NCBI GenBank assembly: GCA_964637115.1
Contig: CAZWVL010000006.1
Location: 1-64,000 of the forward strand
DNA: 64,000 bases
Direction of reading: 5' to 3'
From: an uncultured Methanosarcinales archaeon
GTDB lineage: Archaea; Nanobdellota; Nanobdellia; Woesearchaeales; ARS49
Shown: positions 10,729 through 59,347 of the stretch, in pieces
Position numbering within the stretch: the stretch's first letter is position 1
Layout of the letters: each line of letters begins with the position of its first letter
Position numbers and translations under genes: made by a program
Notes under the pieces: generated by a model
The model's input: only the letters and a program-made list of their open reading frames with translations
Database searches by the model: none
Told to the model about the DNA's origin: nothing

Positions 10729-12246
10729 ATGAAACTGATACCCATCATATTGCTCATATGCTTTCTTCCTATAGCAAACGCGCACCTTGAAAGCAGCATA
10801 CACCTGACAGATGAAGGCTTCATTCCAACTGAAATTGAGATTGCGCCTGGAACAATGGTTGTATTCGAAAACAAGGGAAAAGAAACCCATTGGCCAGCCT
10901 CCAATATGCACCCAACACACGAAGAATATTCAGAATTTGACCCGAAAATGCCTATAAAGCCAGGCGAACGCTGGGAATTCACATTTGAAAATATAGGAGA
11001 ATGGCAGTTCCACGACCATCTAAACCCGCAGACAACAGGCACGATAATTGTAGGAAAAGAACATACTGCAGGATTCTTTTCTGAACTTAAAGGGTTTTTG
11101 ACGGACCTGTTGAAAATATTTCAAAGGAAAGAAAAAACGCCTGAGATAACAGCACTGCTTGTTCAGCCATCTGATTTTCATACTACGAACCAAATCAATA
11201 CTTCGTGCAGCAAATATGATTTAAAATGCGTCAAGAATTCGTTGAATGAGATAACAATCGAATACGGTCCGCAAAGAGCCTTGCAACATTTAGAAGCCTT
11301 ACAGCAACAGGGAAACGTCAGCTTATCATTGGACGACCATGACCTAGCGCACGCAATTGGAAGAACCACTGCTGAAAAACTAGGCATAACACCAGAATAC
11401 TTTTTCGAGTGCGACACTGATTTTGACTACGGATGCCAGCACGGATTCTTCGAATACGTACTAAGCAATACGAGCACAGGAGAAGGAGCAATCTCACTAA
11501 TCTGCGACCAAATCAACAGCACATATTCAGTGCACTACAAATACAGATGCTATCACGGAGCAGGCCACGGAATAATGATGGCAAAAGCATACGATTTAAA
11601 CGAAACACTTGCAGTCTGCGACGAACTTGAAACACACTTTGCACAAGACGGCTGCTGGCAGGGAGCATTTATGGAAAACACAAACGCAATAATGAGAAAT
11701 CAAGCACGCAAAGGATACGTATCAACAACAGATGCTCTTGTCCCGTGCACACAAATGCAGGAAAAATACCAATACGAATGCTTTTACAACCAAGCACCGT
11801 GGCTTATGAGATTTTTTGATTATGACGTAAGCAATGCATCTCGGGCGTGCCTGCAAGCACCGCAAAACTTCATAGACATATGCGTACAAGGTTTGGGATT
11901 AACGCTTACAAGCCCCAAATGGCACGCGATAGTTATTAAAAACTGGAAACCAGAAGATTTCATTGAAAATTCGTGGGAAATATGCGAACAATTCCCTGAA
12001 AATTACGTTTTTCAGTGCATAAATGGAGCAGTTGACAATATTCTGAATTTTGATCAACTGGACATTACACGGGCAGCAGAATTCTGTTCTATTGTTGAAA
12101 ACAGACTGCAAGAAGGTTGCTATCAAGAAATAGGAAGAAGCGTTTCGTTCCAGGCAACAGATAATTCAACGGTGCGGGAAATATGCAATGGATTGGAAGG
12201 GCCGTTGAATAATAGTTGTTTGAAAGGGGCGAATTTGGTCAAATAA
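10729..12246 (+). CDS. Secreted cupredoxin-like domain fused to a Cys/His-rich helical domain (paralogue 1)
   Basis: Signal ANA-H19; GFIPTEIEIAPG.V.FEN...WPASN.HPTH...FD...PGE.W.FTF...G.W.FHDH (cupredoxin pattern without the Cys ligand); C-terminal HDLAHAIG, CQHGFFE, CYHGAGHG, CWQGAFMEN. Confidence 0.8.
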   Translation: MKLIPIILLICFLPIANAHLESSIHLTDEGFIPTEIEIAPGTMVVFENKGKETHWPASNMHPTHEEYSEFDPKMPIKPGERWEFTFENIGEWQFHDHLNPQTTGTIIVGKEHTAGFFSELKGFLTDLLKIFQRKEKTPEITALLVQPSDFHTTNQINTSCSKYDLKCVKNSLNEITIEYGPQRALQHLEALQQQGNVSLSLDDHDLAHAIGRTTAEKLGITPEYFFECDTDFDYGCQHGFFEYVLSNTSTGEGAISLICDQINSTYSVHYKYRCYHGAGHGIMMAKAYDLNETLAVCDELETHFAQDGCWQGAFMENTNAIMRNQARKGYVSTTDALVPCTQMQEKYQYECFYNQAPWLMRFFDYDVSNASRACLQAPQNFIDICVQGLGLTLTSPKWHAIVIKNWKPEDFIENSWEICEQFPENYVFQCINGAVDNILNFDQLDITRAAEFCSIVENRLQEGCYQEIGRSVSFQATDNSTVREICNGLEGPLNNSCLKGANLVK

Positions 12247-53757: not shown

Positions 53758-53802
53758 GTAACATTTATATAACAGTTGTTATTATTTAATTACAAATGTT
53801 AC
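53758..53802. promoter_or_regulatory. TATA box of the MNT gene within nested inverted repeats (candidate operator)
   Basis: GTAACATTT (53758-66) / AAATGTTAC (53794-802); inner ATAAC-agtt-GTTAT (53769-82); TTTATATA at 53764-71. Confidence 0.55.
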
Positions 53803-54320
53803 AAAATAATAACAAATATAGGGTGCTGAAGCTCTTTTTCGAGCAGCCGACAACAGACTTCCAATTGCGGCAAATCAGCAGGCTTGTGAAGATTGCCCCG
53901 CCTTCAACAAAGAAGTATCTTCAGGAATTGGAGGCAGAAGGACTTGTCGCGAAATCAAAGAAGGGAATCTACCCAAGTTATCGCGCAATACGCGATGCTA
54001 ACTTGTTTAAAGGCCTGAAAAAATGGTCGCTGGCAATCGAGTTTACTAAAAGCGGATTACTAGACCATATTGCGGACAAATGCGGCCCTGATGCCATCAT
54101 CCTATTTGGAAGCGCAAGCCGCGGCGAAGACATCGAGAGCAGCGACATCGACCTTGCCATCCTTGCTGAAGAAACCGAGCTTGATCTTAAAAAATATGAA
54201 AAGCTCATCAGCCGCAAGATTTCCCCGCTGTTTGTCAAAAAATTCAGCGAACTCAGCAACGAACTCAAAAATAATATTTTAAACGGCATCATCCTTTACG
54301 GCTATCTGAAGGTGTTTTAA
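53796..54320 (+). CDS. wHTH-minimal nucleotidyltransferase (MNT) antitoxin-like protein
   Basis: N-terminal ArsR-like HTH; FGSASRGEDIESSDIDL (GS..DxD). Confidence 0.88.
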   Translation: MLQNNNKYRVLKLFFEQPTTDFQLRQISRLVKIAPPSTKKYLQELEAEGLVAKSKKGIYPSYRAIRDANLFKGLKKWSLAIEFTKSGLLDHIADKCGPDAIILFGSASRGEDIESSDIDLAILAEETELDLKKYEKLISRKISPLFVKKFSELSNELKNNILNGIILYGYLKVF

Positions 54321-55543: not shown

Positions 55544-55810
55544 ATGGAACAAACAACCATTTTACACAGCCCAACATTAGAATCCGTGATTATGGTAGAA
55601 AAGACAATACAAAAGTACAGCCAAGAATGTGGAAAATATCAATTATGGAAAAAGCTGCCCAAAAAAATGATGTATCAGACTTTCCAAACAATCCTTGCAT
55701 ATTTAGAAGAGTCCGGAAAGATTATGATAGATAAAGATGGTTGCATCATTTGGACCTACAATCCTGAAAGAATCAAAAAGCTGATTTCTAGTGGAGTTAA
55801 AATACGGTGA
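55544..55810 (+). CDS. Small winged-helix protein, probable antitoxin (88 aa)
   Basis: Real start MEQTTILHSPTL at 55544 after a TATA box (the tracked 271-aa ORF is over-extended); GTGA overlap with the next gene. Confidence 0.72.
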   Translation: MEQTTILHSPTLESVIMVEKTIQKYSQECGKYQLWKKLPKKMMYQTFQTILAYLEESGKIMIDKDGCIIWTYNPERIKKLISSGVKIR

Positions 55811-56145
55811 ACAATAAGCCAGTACACGTCACTTTTGGCGAAAAGAAAATTGAGAAAGAATTTGAAGAGTTGAAAGAAGGCAAATTTGAGGACAAGCAAT
55901 TATACAATTTTATTGACAGGGCGATTAAAGATTTGAAATCCAACCCGATGTGTGGAACAAAAATTCCAAAAAATTTGTGGCCACAAGAATATATACAAGA
56001 ATACGAAATTACTAATTTGTGGAAATATGATTTACCCAATGGCTGGAGGTTGATTTATACAATTCAGACAAATGAAGTAATGATTTTGAATGTAATTCTT
56101 GAGTGGTTTAATCATAAGGATTACGAGCGCAAGTTTAAATACTAA
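55807..56145 (+). CDS. RelE/ParE-superfamily toxin-like protein
   Basis: 112 aa; L..NP..G..I, LWKYDLP.GWRLIYTI, H..YE. Confidence 0.75.
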   Translation: MNNKPVHVTFGEKKIEKEFEELKEGKFEDKQLYNFIDRAIKDLKSNPMCGTKIPKNLWPQEYIQEYEITNLWKYDLPNGWRLIYTIQTNEVMILNVILEWFNHKDYERKFKY

Positions 56146-56186: not shown

Positions 56187-57623
56187 ATGAAAGTCATTCT
56201 TGCACTCATCGTCTGCTTATTTGCAGCCATAGCATACGCACACGAAGCAGACAACATAATTCACATCACTGACGTAGGGTTTGTACCGTCAAAACTGGAA
56301 ATAGAACAAGAAATGACGGTAGAGTTTGAAAACATTGGCAAGAATCCGCACTGGCCGGCATCAAACATACACCCAACACACGAGATTTATTCAGAATTTG
56401 ACCCGAAAGACGTCATACAGCCAGGAGAAAGCTGGAGTTTTACTTTTGACAAGGCAGGCGAATGGAGATTCCACGACCACGCTTATCCGGAATTCATAGG
56501 AACAATAATCGTAATTGAGAAGGACAGTTTCCTGAATTCTGTCAAAGGCTTCTTTACAGACATCTTCAAATCGCCGCTAATAACCGCTTTGATTTTCTGG
56601 GACGGTGAAGAAATCAGCCCATACAACGAATCAATTGAAATAACTTCTGAAGACATCTTCCGCAATGACAGCCAGCTTTACTCTTATATCAAAAAGTTCG
56701 GAGTGAAGCAAACAACAGCGTTCCTGCACCAGCTTGAAGGAAAACATGGTGATTGCCATCAGACCGCACACCGGCTGGGCAGATTTGCGTACCAGTTATA
56801 CGCCAATGATGTATTCCAGCAATGCTCGATTGAATGCCACTCAGGATGCTACCATGGCGCCATAGAGTATTATTTCAAAGAATACGGCACAACAGACATA
56901 CCAACAGCCCTGAACACGATATGCGGAAACCAAGAAAACGGGTTTTTCGCACACCAATGCTTCCACGGAATAGGCCACGGGCTAATGGCGTGGACAGACT
57001 ATGAACTGCTAGAAGCATTACAAAAATGCGACTTATTGCAAGATGGCAAAAATTCCTGTTACACAGGAGCCTTCATGGAAAACGTTGTTGCATCACTCGC
57101 AGAAAATAAAAGCACGCACGTAAGCAAATACGTAAATGACGATCCTCAATATCCGTGTTCAATAGTGGAAGACAAGTACAAATGGGACTGCTACTTCTTC
57201 CAAACAGCAAGAATGAAAGAAATATTCAACAATGACTTCAGGAAAGTGGCAGAAGCGTGCGCTGACGCGCCGGAAGCATATCAACGAAACTGTTTTGAAA
57301 GCATGGGAAGAGACATCAGCGGAAATACCATAATGAATGTTGACAAGTCAATAGAACTCTGCCAGTCAGCTCCGCCAAAAGGACCGAGAATCGCCTGCCT
57401 AAAAGGAGCAGTGCAAGACATGTTCTGGGATTCATCAGGACAAGACAAATCACTCAGTTTCTGCAAAAAACTCACAGATTTAAACGAGAAATCCGAATGT
57501 TATAATACAATATTTGAACGAGCGCCGCTTGTAATAAGTTCACAAGAAGAATTGAAAATGTTCTGTGAAAAGGCAGAAGAAAGATATCAAAACTCTTGCT
57601 TAACACAGACACACCTAGAATGA
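56187..57623 (+). CDS. Secreted cupredoxin-like plus Cys/His-rich protein (paralogue 2)
   Basis: Signal AYA-H19; WPASNIHPTH, FHDH; CHQTAHRLG, CYHGAIE, CFHGIGHG, CYTGAFMEN. Confidence 0.8.
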   Translation: MKVILALIVCLFAAIAYAHEADNIIHITDVGFVPSKLEIEQEMTVEFENIGKNPHWPASNIHPTHEIYSEFDPKDVIQPGESWSFTFDKAGEWRFHDHAYPEFIGTIIVIEKDSFLNSVKGFFTDIFKSPLITALIFWDGEEISPYNESIEITSEDIFRNDSQLYSYIKKFGVKQTTAFLHQLEGKHGDCHQTAHRLGRFAYQLYANDVFQQCSIECHSGCYHGAIEYYFKEYGTTDIPTALNTICGNQENGFFAHQCFHGIGHGLMAWTDYELLEALQKCDLLQDGKNSCYTGAFMENVVASLAENKSTHVSKYVNDDPQYPCSIVEDKYKWDCYFFQTARMKEIFNNDFRKVAEACADAPEAYQRNCFESMGRDISGNTIMNVDKSIELCQSAPPKGPRIACLKGAVQDMFWDSSGQDKSLSFCKKLTDLNEKSECYNTIFERAPLVISSQEELKMFCEKAEERYQNSCLTQTHLE

Positions 57624-59347
57624 GAATATCACTTGCATTGCTCATTGGAGGCATACTCTCAGGGATTGTTTCTTCAACACTTTATTATTTGCGTGGTTAT
57701 CATCATGGAATACTGGGCCTTTTTTTAGCCTCACTTTTTCTAACAGGAGCTTACTTTTTCCTGAAAAGAACAAGAAAAAAATCACGATTCAATAAATACG
57801 ATACTGCAGCAGTCGCAATTTTGCTGCTGATATTTGCGCCACTTTATCTTGCGTTTATTTACACCATTCCATGGCAAGTTGGTTCGGATGAAGTAACGAT
57901 TATGATAACAGAAAGGAATACGATCTATAGAGATAATTTCGATCCTTTTGGAATCAGCTCCTACTTCGGGTTTCCCAGTCTAGTATTTCTAACATTTGGG
58001 TGGCTAGGGAAGATCACTGGGGGAATTGACTTGTTGCACATGCGAACAATTCACGCTGTCAGTGGACTGGCAGTCATCCTATTGGGTTATTTCCTGTTCC
58101 GAACAGGCCTGTCAAGACCGCTTTCATTTGTTGGAGCAGTAATCCTAGGCTCAAACCACTCACTCCTTGCAATAAGCAGAATGGCAATGAGAGACAATAC
58201 CGGACTTCTCATCGAAGTTGCTGCCTTAACAGTCTTGTTAATTGGACTTCAACGAAAATGCCAATTTTATACTTTTCTAGGAGGACTCATCGCCGGACTC
58301 TCATTCTACGTCTATTATCCAGGCAGGATAACCATAATCGCGTGGTTTGCGTTCTTGGCAATGACTGCGTTATTTATCCGCAAGACCTCATTTAGAGAAT
58401 TAACCAAACTAGGCATAATAGCGCTTCTTGGATTTGCCATGGTTGCAAACCCAATCATGCTAGCTACAGTGAAGGCGCAAGATTTAGCACTTAAGTTTCA
58501 AAGAGAACAGCTGCTGATTTTTCCTGAAGGCAGAGAATTACTGAAACCGTGGTATGCAACAAATACAACCTATGAAGGGGTCAAAACTAACATGATTTAT
58601 GGACTCACCGCATTTAACAATGAAGTAGACGACCACGGCTGGATTTACTCAAACTACAAGCACGGCTTTGTTGACCCATTAACCGGAATTCTTATCTGGA
58701 TCGGACTGGCAACAATCTTGTTCGAGTTATTCTCTAAGAGAGAATTGCAAAATATTGAACTGTTGTCAGTGGCAGGATTTCTTATTTTATGGTTACTACT
58801 AAGCTTTGTCGTGGGCAAAAGCCCCAATTATACACGCCTTCTCGTGATATTACCTTTTGTTGCAGTACTTGTTACCAAAGCCATAGGCACGATATCAAAT
58901 TTCACCAACGCCAAAATAGGAAAATTGCGCGCGAGCAACGTTTTATTCGCATTATTTGTCATAATCATCTTTTTCTGGAATCTGGGAATATTATCTGATT
59001 ATGTCAAACGCGTATTTTCTGAAGGCAATGACATAGGCGGAACAGCCAGATACATAGAAGAACGAAAAGGCATTGCGAACTATACTTTTTATTTCGCGGA
59101 GAGCGGTCAATACACATACTATGTCTGGGGTATGAAATGGCACGAGTTTTTTGTTGATCCGACACAACAATCAATAATAATTTCACCAGAATCTGCAATT
59201 GAGTCGATAAGACAACTGCCTTTCACTATTTTCACATCTGAAAGCGGCTGGAAATTGTTTGAAAACCAGACGAGAAACCTTTATCCAAATTTAAACATTC
59301 AAAACATTAAAGCGGATGGAAGTTTGCTTGCAATAGAAGTACAGTAG
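57620..59347 (+). CDS. GT-C fold glycosyltransferase (ArnT-like)
   Basis: VGSDE, FGFPSL, SR..MRD, Y.YYPGR; ATG 57620 overlaps the upstream TGA. Confidence 0.8.
   Translation: MRISLALLIGGILSGIVSSTLYYLRGYHHGILGLFLASLFLTGAYFFLKRTRKKSRFNKYDTAAVAILLLIFAPLYLAFIYTIPWQVGSDEVTIMITERNTIYRDNFDPFGISSYFGFPSLVFLTFGWLGKITGGIDLLHMRTIHAVSGLAVILLGYFLFRTGLSRPLSFVGAVILGSNHSLLAISRMAMRDNTGLLIEVAALTVLLIGLQRKCQFYTFLGGLIAGLSFYVYYPGRITIIAWFAFLAMTALFIRKTSFRELTKLGIIALLGFAMVANPIMLATVKAQDLALKFQREQLLIFPEGRELLKPWYATNTTYEGVKTNMIYGLTAFNNEVDDHGWIYSNYKHGFVDPLTGILIWIGLATILFELFSKRELQNIELLSVAGFLILWLLLSFVVGKSPNYTRLLVILPFVAVLVTKAIGTISNFTNAKIGKLRASNVLFALFVIIIFFWNLGILSDYVKRVFSEGNDIGGTARYIEERKGIANYTFYFAESGQYTYYVWGMKWHEFFVDPTQQSIIISPESAIESIRQLPFTIFTSESGWKLFENQTRNLYPNLNIQNIKADGSLLAIEVQ

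What the first reader, a model, noticed from the sequence alone, without database searches (positions are those of the whole stretch)
10729..11055. Candidate new histidine-brace copper proteins: His is residue 1 of the mature chain in both paralogues
Both paralogues have an 18-aa signal ending A-x-A followed by His19 (ANA-HL at 10783; AYA-HE at 56241), although the signals are otherwise diverged. An N-terminal His after cleavage is the hallmark of His-brace Cu sites (LPMO, CopC, YcnI; established). The cupredoxin-like domain lacks the type-1 Cys and instead has conserved H-W-P-A-S-N-x-H-P-T-H and F-H-D-H. A secreted His-only copper site beside a glycan island could serve Cu handling or oxidative glycan chemistry (inference).
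Basis: partly seen in the sequence, partly recalled or inferred. Interest (0 to 1): 0.8.

Follow-up and report, generated by a model that had tools for sequence, protein, structure and literature searches.

The report
Exported histidine-first, non-blue cupredoxin-solenoid protein pair
Two exported proteins of a tiny archaeon start with a histidine once their export signal is removed.

Summary
Genes 10729-12246 and 56187-57623 both read signal peptide, A-x-A, then His19. In related proteins with a cleavable signal, His follows the cleavage site in about 90% (about 85 of 94).

- The N-terminal domain is a true cupredoxin (VIA Z 14.4) without the blue-copper ligands; Asp96 replaces the Cys.
- Four His are invariant across the family (H61, H64, H95, H97). 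They align with the H-x-x-H and H-C/D-H ligands that multicopper oxidases use for non-blue copper.
- This cluster is kept in membrane-anchored, lipoprotein and C-terminally placed versions, which cannot have a free N-terminal His.
- By fold topology His19 lies at the opposite pole, about 25 A away. A brace of His19 with HPTH/HDH is therefore unlikely.
- Histidine-first members instead carry a second His or Glu 3-10 residues downstream (His25 here). This suggests a small separate amino-terminal chelate.

The C-terminal domain is a disulfide-stapled alpha-solenoid with five invariant His and no solved relative. It is fused or adjacent to the cupredoxin in 53 of 79 loci. The two paralogues are orthologues of a conserved tandem gene pair. 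The link to glycan genes is not conserved. No metal data exist. The scan earlier noted other, unrelated histidine-first cupredoxins in marine archaea.

The parts
10729..12246 (+). Gene A: exported two-domain protein, 505 aa. It is the orthologue of 'gene 1' of the conserved tandem pair.
   Evidence: ORF. AF2 model of the full protein: pLDDT 89.5, pTM 0.84. Tree: it falls in the clade holding 13 of 15 gene-1 sequences.
10729..10782 (+). Signal peptide of A, 18 aa, ending A-N-A
   Evidence: Read from the sequence. The -3/-1 rule is met. SignalP was not available.
10783..10785 (+). His19 of A, the predicted first residue of the mature chain
   Evidence: His occupies +1 in about 90% of cleavable homologues.
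10783..11055 (+). Cupredoxin domain of A (res 19-109), non-blue
   Evidence: Pfam PF13473: 29.0 bits for the mature domain against a cut-off of 27. VIA Z 14.4 to 5fc9 and Z 13.3 to plastocyanin. Foldseek.
10801..10803 (+). His25 on strand 1, the candidate partner of His19 in a local N-terminal chelate
   Evidence: Among 50%-identity representatives, His at this column occurs in 43% of histidine-first members and 6% of anchored members. A second His lies within 3-10 residues in 21/30 versus 19/82.
10888..10920 (+). H54-W-P-A-S-N-M-H61-P-T-H64. W55, P56, A57, S58, H61, P62 and H64 are family-invariant; H54 is variable.
   Evidence: H54 aligns with amicyanin ligand His53. H61-x-x-H64 aligns with 'H-G-t-H' of domain 1 of 9cck.
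11008..11019 (+). F94-H95-D96-H97. Both His are invariant. Asp96 sits at the type-1 Cys position.
   Evidence: Alignment to amicyanin H-C-T. Alignment to the multicopper oxidase motifs W-Y-H-P-H, H-D-H and H-C-H in 6vox, 3g5w, 2zwn and 9cck.
11056..11205 (+). Amphipathic helix (res 118-129) followed by a low-confidence linker
   Evidence: AF2 secondary structure, with pLDDT 59-71 for res 111-160. A similar helix follows the domain in short histidine-first members.
11206..12243 (+). Disulfide-stapled alpha-solenoid domain (res 160-505). It has nine conserved Cys pairs and invariant H204, H208, H238, H276 and H280.
   Evidence: AF2 of this domain alone: pLDDT 93.7, pTM 0.90. No Pfam or NCBIfam hit. 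Best PDB matches: Foldseek E 3e-3 and VIA Z 7.6, all generic repeat proteins.
56187..57623 (+). Gene B: paralogue, 478 aa. It is the orthologue of 'gene 2' of the tandem pair and is 60% identical to the same-genus orthologue.
56187..56240 (+). Signal peptide of B, ending A-Y-A. An alternative site A-I-A lies two residues earlier.
   Evidence: Read from the sequence.
56241..56243 (+). His19 of B, the predicted mature N-terminus
56241..56513 (+). Cupredoxin domain of B, with H26 on strand 1, H55-H62-H65 at 56349-56381 and F-H96-D-H98 at 56469-56480
   Evidence: Pfam PF13473 at 29.2 bits..
56640..57620 (+). Alpha-solenoid domain of B

Best explanation
Shown: the domain layout, the fold, the conservation and the gene linkage. 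Inferred: the cleavage site, the metal, both metal sites and any hand-over of metal.

Genes A and B encode exported two-domain metalloproteins, most probably copper-binding. After Sec export, signal peptidase is predicted to cut at A-x-A|H, so the mature chain begins with His19.

Domain 1 is a cupredoxin that has lost the blue-copper ligand set. Asp96 stands in for Cys, Asn99 for His and Thr for Met. It carries four family-invariant His (H61, H64, H95, H97). They follow the pattern H-x-x-H ... H-(C->D)-H, which multicopper oxidase and NirK domains use to hold their non-blue (type 2/3) copper beside the old type-1 pocket. I infer an exposed, His-only, type-2-like copper site there. This is the core site of the whole family.

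His19 lies at the opposite pole of the barrel. Its amino group and imidazole, together with His25 on strand 1, are inferred to form a small separate amino-terminal Cu(II) chelate, a minimal histidine brace. In relatives the partner is another His or a Glu 3-10 residues downstream. This chelate would capture metal and hand it on. It exists only in forms whose N-terminus is freed by cleavage.

Domain 2 is a disulfide-stapled alpha-solenoid lined with five invariant His. It is the conserved partner of the cupredoxin, and its function is unknown.

A and B correspond to gene 1 and gene 2 of an ancient tandem pair and probably act together.
For: - Fold: VIA Z 14.4/13.3/12.8 to 5fc9, plastocyanin and amicyanin over 86-87 residues; Foldseek; Pfam Cupredoxin_1 at 29.0/29.2 bits against a cut-off of 27.
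- Loss of the type-1 site: profile alignment puts D96 on amicyanin Cys92, N99 on His95 and T/F on Met98.
- Invariant residues W55 P56 A57 S58 H61 P62 H64 F70 D71 W82 G90 H95 H97.
- Multicopper oxidase motif match: the second half of the domain hits 6vox, 3g5w, 6vow and 2zwn best (E 0.0015-0.008), with H-D-H aligned on H-D-H or H-P-H. Paralogue B aligns 'H-P-t-H ... F-H-D-H' with 'H-G-t-H ... Y-H-C-H' of 9cck. In SLAC the same pattern (H231, H234, H236; H287-C288-H289) binds type 1 plus trinuclear copper (PMC3918160).
- His at +1: 83 (+2 truncated) against about 9 cleavable members; the tail before strand 1 is 4-9 residues, mode 6.
- A second His within 3-10 residues in 21/30 histidine-first versus 19/82 anchored representatives, Fisher p = 1e-5, not corrected for phylogeny. 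His at column 25 in 43% versus 6%.
- An N-terminal His is an established chelate (PMC12537917).
- Module linkage: in 79 loci with the solenoid, the cupredoxin is fused in 30 (both orders) and adjacent in 23.
- A/B orthology to the tandem pair.
Against: - No metal-binding data exist for any member.
- Model coordinates could not be read, so no distance was measured. The 25 A figure is an inference from structural alignment ranges plus textbook cupredoxin topology.
- Residues 11-20 of the precursor model have pLDDT 56.
- The His25 partner is present in under half of histidine-first members, and the class comparison is confounded by relatedness.
- The multicopper oxidase similarity is local and weak. 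Pfam shows no Cu-oxidase hit, and the first half of the domain finds nothing in the PDB.
- 42 fused N-to-C members are membrane-anchored without His1, so the chelate is dispensable.
- The genome has no heme-copper oxidase and no multicopper oxidase, so no obvious copper client exists.
- In the same phylum the cupredoxin occurs in 27/301 genomes but the solenoid in only 4/301. The domain therefore also works without the solenoid.
Confidence: 0.45

Rival explanations
1. A single histidine-brace site is made of His19 (amine plus imidazole) together with His of HPTH/HDH, like the CuB site of PmoB (N-terminal His plus H-x-H). It would carry out LPMO-like oxidative chemistry on the glycans made by the neighbouring island.
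For: - His at +1 is conserved.
- An H-x-H motif is present.
- From my own knowledge, PmoB combines an N-terminal His with H-x-H in a cupredoxin-like domain.
- The narrow tail length (mode 6) suggests a fixed docking place for His1.
- Both genes lie at the edges of a glycosyltransferase island.
Against: - His19 maps to the pole opposite the HDH turn.
- In A only three residues separate His19 from strand 1.
- HPTH/HDH are kept at 85-100% where no free N-terminus exists.
- There is no LPMO, CopC or YcnI Pfam signal.
- The glycan-gene neighbourhood is not conserved.
Confidence: 0.1
2. The four His of the cupredoxin are half of an interfacial, multicopper-oxidase-like multinuclear copper centre. 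The other half comes from a partner: the five His of the alpha-solenoid (in cis, or from the A/B partner) or a second copy of the domain. The protein would be an oxidase or reductase, and His19 is peripheral.
For: - Motif homology to the trinuclear-cluster ligands of multicopper oxidases, including H-D-H in the type-1-less domain of two-domain oxidases.
- The solenoid has five invariant His.
- The two domains are fused in both orders or encoded side by side in 53/79 loci.
- pTM 0.84 for the full chain despite a floppy linker suggests a defined domain packing.
- Conserved A/B pair.
Against: - Stand-alone cupredoxins occur in genomes where no solenoid was found (27/301 versus 4/301).
- Solenoid genes occur with no cupredoxin nearby in 26/79 loci.
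- The solenoid His lie at equivalent positions of successive repeats, which fits a ligand-binding groove as well as a metal site.
- No coordinates were available to test whether the two His sets face each other.
Confidence: 0.15
3. No copper chemistry. The His cluster binds another metal (Zn, Ni or Fe) or is structural. His at +1 is a lineage habit or processing preference, and the proteins are binding or adhesion modules of the cell surface.
For: - No metal data exist.
- DPANN and Patescibacteria have few copper enzymes, and this genome has none detected.
- The alpha-solenoid fold is typical of binding proteins.
- The N-terminal His families described so far bind Ni as well as Cu (PMC12537917).
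Against: - Four invariant His at positions homologous to copper ligands.
- His at +1 recurs across distant phyla while the signal peptides themselves diverge.
- The genome keeps a CopA-like ATPase with two HMA domains, so copper is handled.
Confidence: 0.2

Closest known systems
Type-1-less cupredoxin domains of two-domain multicopper oxidases (N. europaea BCO 3G5W domain 2; metagenomic mgLAC 2ZWN domain 2) and the multicopper oxidase/NirK-type domain 1 of 9CCK
   Same: Cupredoxin fold. The block P-G-E-x-W/Y ... G-x-W-x-F/I-H-D-H aligns, with an identical H-D-H in 3g5w and 2zwn. An upstream H-x-x-H is also present.
   Different: There is one cupredoxin domain per chain, not two or three. The third His of H-x-x-H-x-H is missing. 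No type-1 site exists anywhere in the protein. Pfam gives no Cu-oxidase hit. The partner is a helical solenoid, and the chain has an N-terminal His.
Cupredoxin_1 (PF13473) non-classical cupredoxins: the EfeO N-terminal domain (7WGU), FtrB (8VUK) and the B. anthracis protein 4HCF
   Same: It is the Pfam family that matches. VIA Z 10.6-12.0. FtrB also lacks the H-H-C set; its predicted Cu(II) ligands are Asp118 and His121 near the C-terminus (PMC11966278).
   Different: The WPAS-x-HPTH and HDH motifs are specific to this family. No iron-permease context was seen. The domain is fused or linked to the solenoid, and cleaved forms start with His.
Histidine-brace and N-terminal-His metalloproteins: LPMOs, CopC, YcnI, PmoB CuB, and the DUF4198, DUF6702 and 'anglerase' families
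   Same: A signal peptide is cut directly before a conserved His. The chain is an extracytoplasmic beta-sandwich. The idea of an N-terminal chelate that captures metal applies here too (PMC12537917).
   Different: The fold family differs. His1 is absent from most of the family. The conserved His cluster lies far from the N-terminus. No metal has been shown to bind.
Histidine-first cupredoxin-like proteins of Marine Group II archaea noted earlier in this scan (e1-2802420, e1-2602224, e1-5000238)
   Same: Degenerate cupredoxins with a predicted N-terminal His, in archaea.
   Different: Those carry an Asp-x-His motif and sit beside propeller or Sco genes. No shared words were found with this protein. 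I did not test those notes.

Membership tests
Histidine-brace copper proteins (LPMO / CopC / YcnI / PmoB CuB) | The mature chain begins with His, because the signal peptide is cut directly before it | tested here: met
   A-N-A|H and A-Y-A|H. The junction is conserved in about 90% of cleavable homologues. This is a prediction only: no SignalP run and no protein data.
Histidine-brace copper proteins (LPMO / CopC / YcnI / PmoB CuB) | A second His lies close enough to complete the T-shaped N3 site with the N-terminal chelate | tested here: inconclusive
   HPTH/HDH map to the opposite pole. His25 is a candidate from class-specific enrichment. Model coordinates could not be read.
Histidine-brace copper proteins (LPMO / CopC / YcnI / PmoB CuB) | His1 is conserved throughout the family | tested here: not met
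   It is absent from 89 anchored and 28 non-N-terminal members that keep the His cluster, and from the DPANN lipoprotein forms.
Histidine-brace copper proteins (LPMO / CopC / YcnI / PmoB CuB) | Sequence membership in an LPMO (AA9-17), CopC (PF04234) or YcnI (PF07987) family | tested here: not met
   Pfam at E up to 1 or 10 gives only PF13473 and PF00127. These folds were not among the listed structural matches, which does not exclude them.
Cupredoxin_1 (PF13473) / cupredoxin fold | HMM score above the gathering threshold, and a Greek-key cupredoxin fold | tested here: met
   29.0 and 29.2 bits for the mature domains, 29.7 for full-length B and 26.9 for full-length A, against a cut-off of 27. 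Z 14.4, rmsd 1.6 A over 86 residues to 5fc9.
Blue (type 1) copper proteins: plastocyanin, amicyanin, azurin | The ligand set His, Cys, His, Met/Gln | tested here: not met
   Asp96 at Cys, Asn99 at His, Thr/Phe at Met. Only H54 matches, and it is variable in the family. NCBIfam plastocyanin scores 18 bits against a cut-off of 88.
Multicopper oxidases / NirK | H-x-x-H(-x-H) and H-C/D-H motifs that bind type 2/3 copper | tested here: inconclusive
   Local alignments to 6vox, 3g5w, 2zwn and 9cck place HPTH and HDH on these motifs, but E is only 1e-3 to 1e-2. The third His is missing.
Multicopper oxidases / NirK | Two or more cupredoxin domains per chain, with a type-1 site feeding the cluster | tested here: not met
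   One cupredoxin domain per chain. No Cys ligand. No Cu-oxidase Pfam hit.

The most novel reading that the evidence does not exclude
The cupredoxin-solenoid module, working as an A/B pair, is a new class of copper enzyme. A type-1-less, multicopper-oxidase-type cupredoxin domain and a His-lined, disulfide-stapled alpha-solenoid would together hold a multinuclear copper centre. In cleaved forms this centre would be fed by an amino-terminal histidine chelate. The module is spread across Patescibacteria, Chloroflexota, Actinomycetota, Nitrospirota and some DPANN archaea.
Probability: 0.12. Interest if true: 0.85.

Novelty: new variant of a known kind. Interest (0 to 1): 0.6.

Why it matters
N-terminal histidines are a rare and reliable sequence flag for extracytoplasmic metal sites. 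Each new family found this way (LPMOs, CopC, YcnI, the 2025 'signal-strapping' families) has revealed new metal biology.

This family is large: 5568 cluster representatives at E <= 1e-3. No paper describing it turned up in my searches, and sources name its members only 'plastocyanin' or 'hypothetical'.

Three features make it worth study.
- It combines a histidine-first cupredoxin with an invariant four-His cluster that looks like the non-blue copper ligands of multicopper oxidases.
- It has a partner domain with no solved relative.
- It is common in ultra-small, host-dependent bacteria and archaea, which have almost no known copper enzymes.

It could show how such cells handle copper at their surface. 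It could also represent a living example of the single-domain stage proposed in multicopper-oxidase evolution. The present case also gives a practical caution: a conserved His at +1 does not by itself show which residues complete the site.

Tried and rejected
- Two home-made cleavage-site predictors picked sites inside the hydrophobic core or after the His. I discarded them for a motif-based classification plus inspection by eye.
Gene neighbourhoods were taken from the search for related loci instead.
- AF2 coordinates are not exposed, so the planned His-His distance measurements could not be made.
- A PDB search with the first half of the domain found nothing.
- Pfam at E up to 10 gave no Cu-oxidase, CopC, YcnI or LPMO family.
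- The ESM Atlas gave only 'hypothetical protein' clusters for the solenoid.
- Foldseek and VIA searches with the solenoid alone gave only generic helical repeats.
- rRNA searches of the genome were empty. The domain of life was settled with ribosomal proteins L31e and L28.
- Literature searches for this family in Patescibacteria or DPANN found nothing relevant. The signal-strapping paper does not mention cupredoxins. Lawton et al. 2009 on 3G5W is not held.
- I considered a copper chaperone for cytochrome oxidase and rejected it: COX1 was not found in a 98% complete genome.
- I considered recent duplication of A and B and rejected it: they belong to two ancient clades.
Full report
WHAT IS THERE. 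The finding's coordinates (10729-11055) cover the signal peptide and first domain of a 505-aa ORF, gene A (10729..12246, +). The paralogue is a 478-aa ORF, gene B (56187..57623, +). The two are 31% identical over their full length and 59% identical in the first domain. Both start with an 18-residue leader: MK, a hydrophobic core, then A-N-A or A-Y-A, followed by His19.

ORGANISM AND SETTING. The 1.27-Mb genome (98% complete) has ribosomal protein L31e and lacks bacterial L28, so it is a small archaeon of DPANN type. The window is a glycosylation island with many PMT_2 GT-C enzymes, GT2 enzymes and an epimerase. Gene A lies between a divergent 2660-aa surface protein and a convergent PhyH-like gene. 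Gene B overlaps a downstream PMT_2 gene by 28 nt. No heme-copper oxidase or multicopper oxidase was found in the genome. There is one CopA-like ATPase with two HMA domains.

FIRST DOMAIN. Pfam assigns it to Cupredoxin_1 (PF13473): 29.0 and 29.2 bits for the mature domains, against a cut-off of 27. The AF2 model of the whole of A is confident (pLDDT 89.5, pTM 0.84). Residues 21-109 superpose on a purple cupredoxin (5fc9, Z 14.4, rmsd 1.6 A over 86 residues), on plastocyanin (Z 13.3) and on amicyanin (Z 12.8) (Foldseek). Profile alignment to amicyanin puts H54 on ligand His53, D96 on Cys92, N99 on His95 and Thr/Phe on Met98. The blue-copper site is therefore gone.

The family is large: 5568 cluster representatives at E <= 1e-3, of which 3030 are at E <= 1e-10. 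Its invariant residues are W55, P56, A57, S58, H61, P62, H64, F70, D71, W82, G90, H95 and H97, with D96 nearly invariant. H54 is variable.

WHAT THE HIS CLUSTER RESEMBLES. A PDB search with the second half of the domain returns multicopper oxidases first (E 0.0015-0.008). The block P-G-E-R-W ... G-E-W-Q-F-H-D-H aligns with domain 1 of 6vox (W-Y-H-P-H) and with domain 2 of the two-domain oxidases 3g5w and 2zwn, which read H-D-H at the same place. Paralogue B aligns 'H-P-t-H ... F-H-D-H' with 'H-G-t-H ... Y-H-C-H' of 9cck. In the small laccase SLAC this pattern is H231 (type 1), H234 and H236 (trinuclear cluster), and H287-C288-H289 (cluster, type 1, cluster) (PMC3918160). So H61-x-x-H64 and H95-D-H97 sit where multicopper oxidase and NirK domains hold their non-blue copper, beside the old type-1 pocket. 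The similarity is local and weak. Pfam sees no Cu-oxidase family, and the first half of the domain finds nothing. I treat it as a good lead, not as membership.

THE N-TERMINAL HIS IN THE FAMILY. I classified 229 members: the 120 best full-length relatives of A plus the best 146 domain representatives.
- 83 have a hydrophobic leader, a small-x-small site and then His, 4-9 residues (mode 6) before strand 1.
- 89 have a membrane anchor or lipobox followed by a linker longer than 15 residues.
- 28 have the domain elsewhere in the chain.
- 25 have a short tail without that motif.
- 4 are truncated.
(All.) By eye, two of the 25 are truncated copies of the first type, and about nine have a cleavable-looking site followed by another residue. 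His is therefore at +1 in about 90% of cleavable forms. This holds across Patescibacteria, Chloroflexota, Actinomycetota and this archaeal genus, while the leaders themselves diverge. That is far beyond chance and argues for a function of the free N-terminal His, which is an established metal chelate (PMC12537917).

WHY IT IS PROBABLY NOT A BRACE WITH HPTH/HDH. First, the four His are kept at 85-100% in forms where a free N-terminal His is impossible. These are forms where the domain follows the solenoid (15 of 83; sequences), tandem arrays, membrane-anchored forms and lipoproteins. They include all stand-alone DPANN copies. Of the fused N-to-C proteins, 80 are histidine-first but 42 are anchored without it.

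Second, topology. The model aligns residue 21 to plastocyanin residue 1 and residue 18 to azurin residue 1. Strand 1 starts at residue 22. In azurin the Cys3-Cys26 end is 2.6 nm from the copper (PMC8154855). HDH is the turn at the Cys position, at the other pole. In A only three residues separate His19 from strand 1. I could not read model coordinates, so this is an inference and not a measurement. Residues 11-20 of the precursor model have low confidence (pLDDT 56).

A LOCAL PARTNER INSTEAD. Histidine-first members differ from anchored ones near the N-terminus. Among 50%-identity representatives, a second His lies 3-10 residues after His1 in 21 of 30, against 19 of 82 anchored members for any His in the equivalent 11 residues (Fisher p = 1e-5). 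His at the exposed strand-1 position (His25 of A, His26 of B) occurs in 43% against 6%. Most of the rest have Glu there, and Glu37 on the neighbouring strand is also enriched. Tails such as H-G-G-E-H-D or H-T-G-T-T-H are common. Some Acidimicrobiia have an internal His-rich segment before the domain. This points to a small amino-terminal chelate at the 'south' pole, separate from the core cluster. Relatedness confounds these counts, so this is a hypothesis.

SECOND DOMAIN AND THE MODULE. Residues 160-505 form 20 helices with nine conserved Cys pairs (repeats of the type C ... C-[YWQ]-x-G) and invariant H204, H208, H238, H276 and H280. Modelled alone it is very confident (pLDDT 93.7, pTM 0.90). 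It has no Pfam or NCBIfam hit. In the PDB it matches only generic solenoids (Foldseek best E 3e-3; VIA best Z 7.6), and the Atlas clusters are unnamed.

A scan of one genome per species found 79 loci with this domain. They come from Patescibacteria, Actinomycetota, Chloroflexota, Nitrospirota, Acidobacteriota, Proteobacteria, Cyanobacteria and a few Woese-/Nanoarchaeota. In 30 the cupredoxin is fused, in either order. In 23 a separate cupredoxin ORF lies next to it. In 26 none is near. The two domains therefore form a conserved module, but not an obligate one. In the window's own phylum the cupredoxin was found in 27 of 301 genomes and the solenoid in 4 of 301 (the 27 include one unpublished genome, G244).

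THE TWO PARALOGUES ARE AN ANCIENT PAIR. In many bacteria two module genes lie head to tail. A quick maximum-likelihood tree splits them into two clades (SH-aLRT 100). WIN_A falls with 13 of 15 first genes. WIN_B, together with its 60%-identical same-genus orthologue, falls with all 15 second genes. The careful tree search did not finish, and two Poriferisodalis first genes fall in the second clade. Here the pair is split by 45 kb of glycosylation genes.

CONTEXT AND FUNCTION. Apart from the module itself, neighbours are lineage-specific: SufBD and a cysteine desulfurase in Actinomycetes, and GT2 in 8 loci. The glycan link is not conserved, and the same-genus orthologue has no co-oriented downstream gene. 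A role in oxidative glycan cleavage has no support beyond position in this one genome.

VERDICT. The proteins are best read as exported, probably copper-binding, non-blue cupredoxin-solenoid proteins with an invariant His-only core site of multicopper-oxidase type. In cleaved forms they carry an accessory amino-terminal His chelate. They are not members of the LPMO, CopC, YcnI or PmoB families. No paper describing the family turned up in my searches, and its members are named only 'plastocyanin' or 'hypothetical'. Earlier notes of this scan describe other histidine-first cupredoxins in Marine Group II archaea, and one note covers the solenoid of this same gene. None covers this family on other DNA.

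Noticed in passing
G000:C1:105106-105489 (locus L008, 378-aa ORF on the minus strand): A third, distant homologue of the alpha-solenoid domain in the same genome. It keeps C-H-x-x-A-H-x-x-G and C-x-H-G but has no cupredoxin domain.
   Followed up: partly
L093-L110 (DPANN relatives) and 62 members of the family set: Anchored and C-terminally placed cupredoxin domains end 0-4 residues after the last strand, and the final residue is Glu in about half (32 of 62). The free C-terminus lies at the same pole as the free N-terminal His of the cleaved forms. This may be a coincidence or an alternative ligand.
   Followed up: partly
L074, L077, L084 (Acidimicrobiia / Poriferisodalis): Fused members carry an internal His-rich segment (H-x-H-E-D-G-x-x-H-T-H-G) directly before the cupredoxin domain, in place of a cleaved N-terminal His.
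   Followed up: no
L006 (G132:C1, 329-aa ORF): A solenoid-only protein whose leader ends T-Y-A followed by His. A predicted N-terminal His can therefore also occur on the partner domain.
   Followed up: no
L023-L029 and other Actinomycete loci: The module lies near SufB/D and a class-V aminotransferase (cysteine desulfurase) in about 10 loci of one lineage.
   Followed up: no
window 57596-57623: Gene B overlaps by 28 nt the start of a 583-aa PMT_2-type GT-C glycosyltransferase gene (57596..59347), which suggests co-transcription. The arrangement is not seen in the same-genus relative.
   Followed up: partly
window 53796-54320 and 55807-56145: A Pol-beta-type nucleotidyltransferase gene and a 112-aa ORF without a Pfam hit lie upstream of gene B. 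They may be toxin-antitoxin-like genes.
   Followed up: no
window 10729-12246 compared with the own phylum: The fused module is rare in the window's phylum (solenoid in 4 of 301 genomes). This hints at transfer between bacteria and this archaeal genus. I did not test it with a rooted tree.
   Followed up: partly
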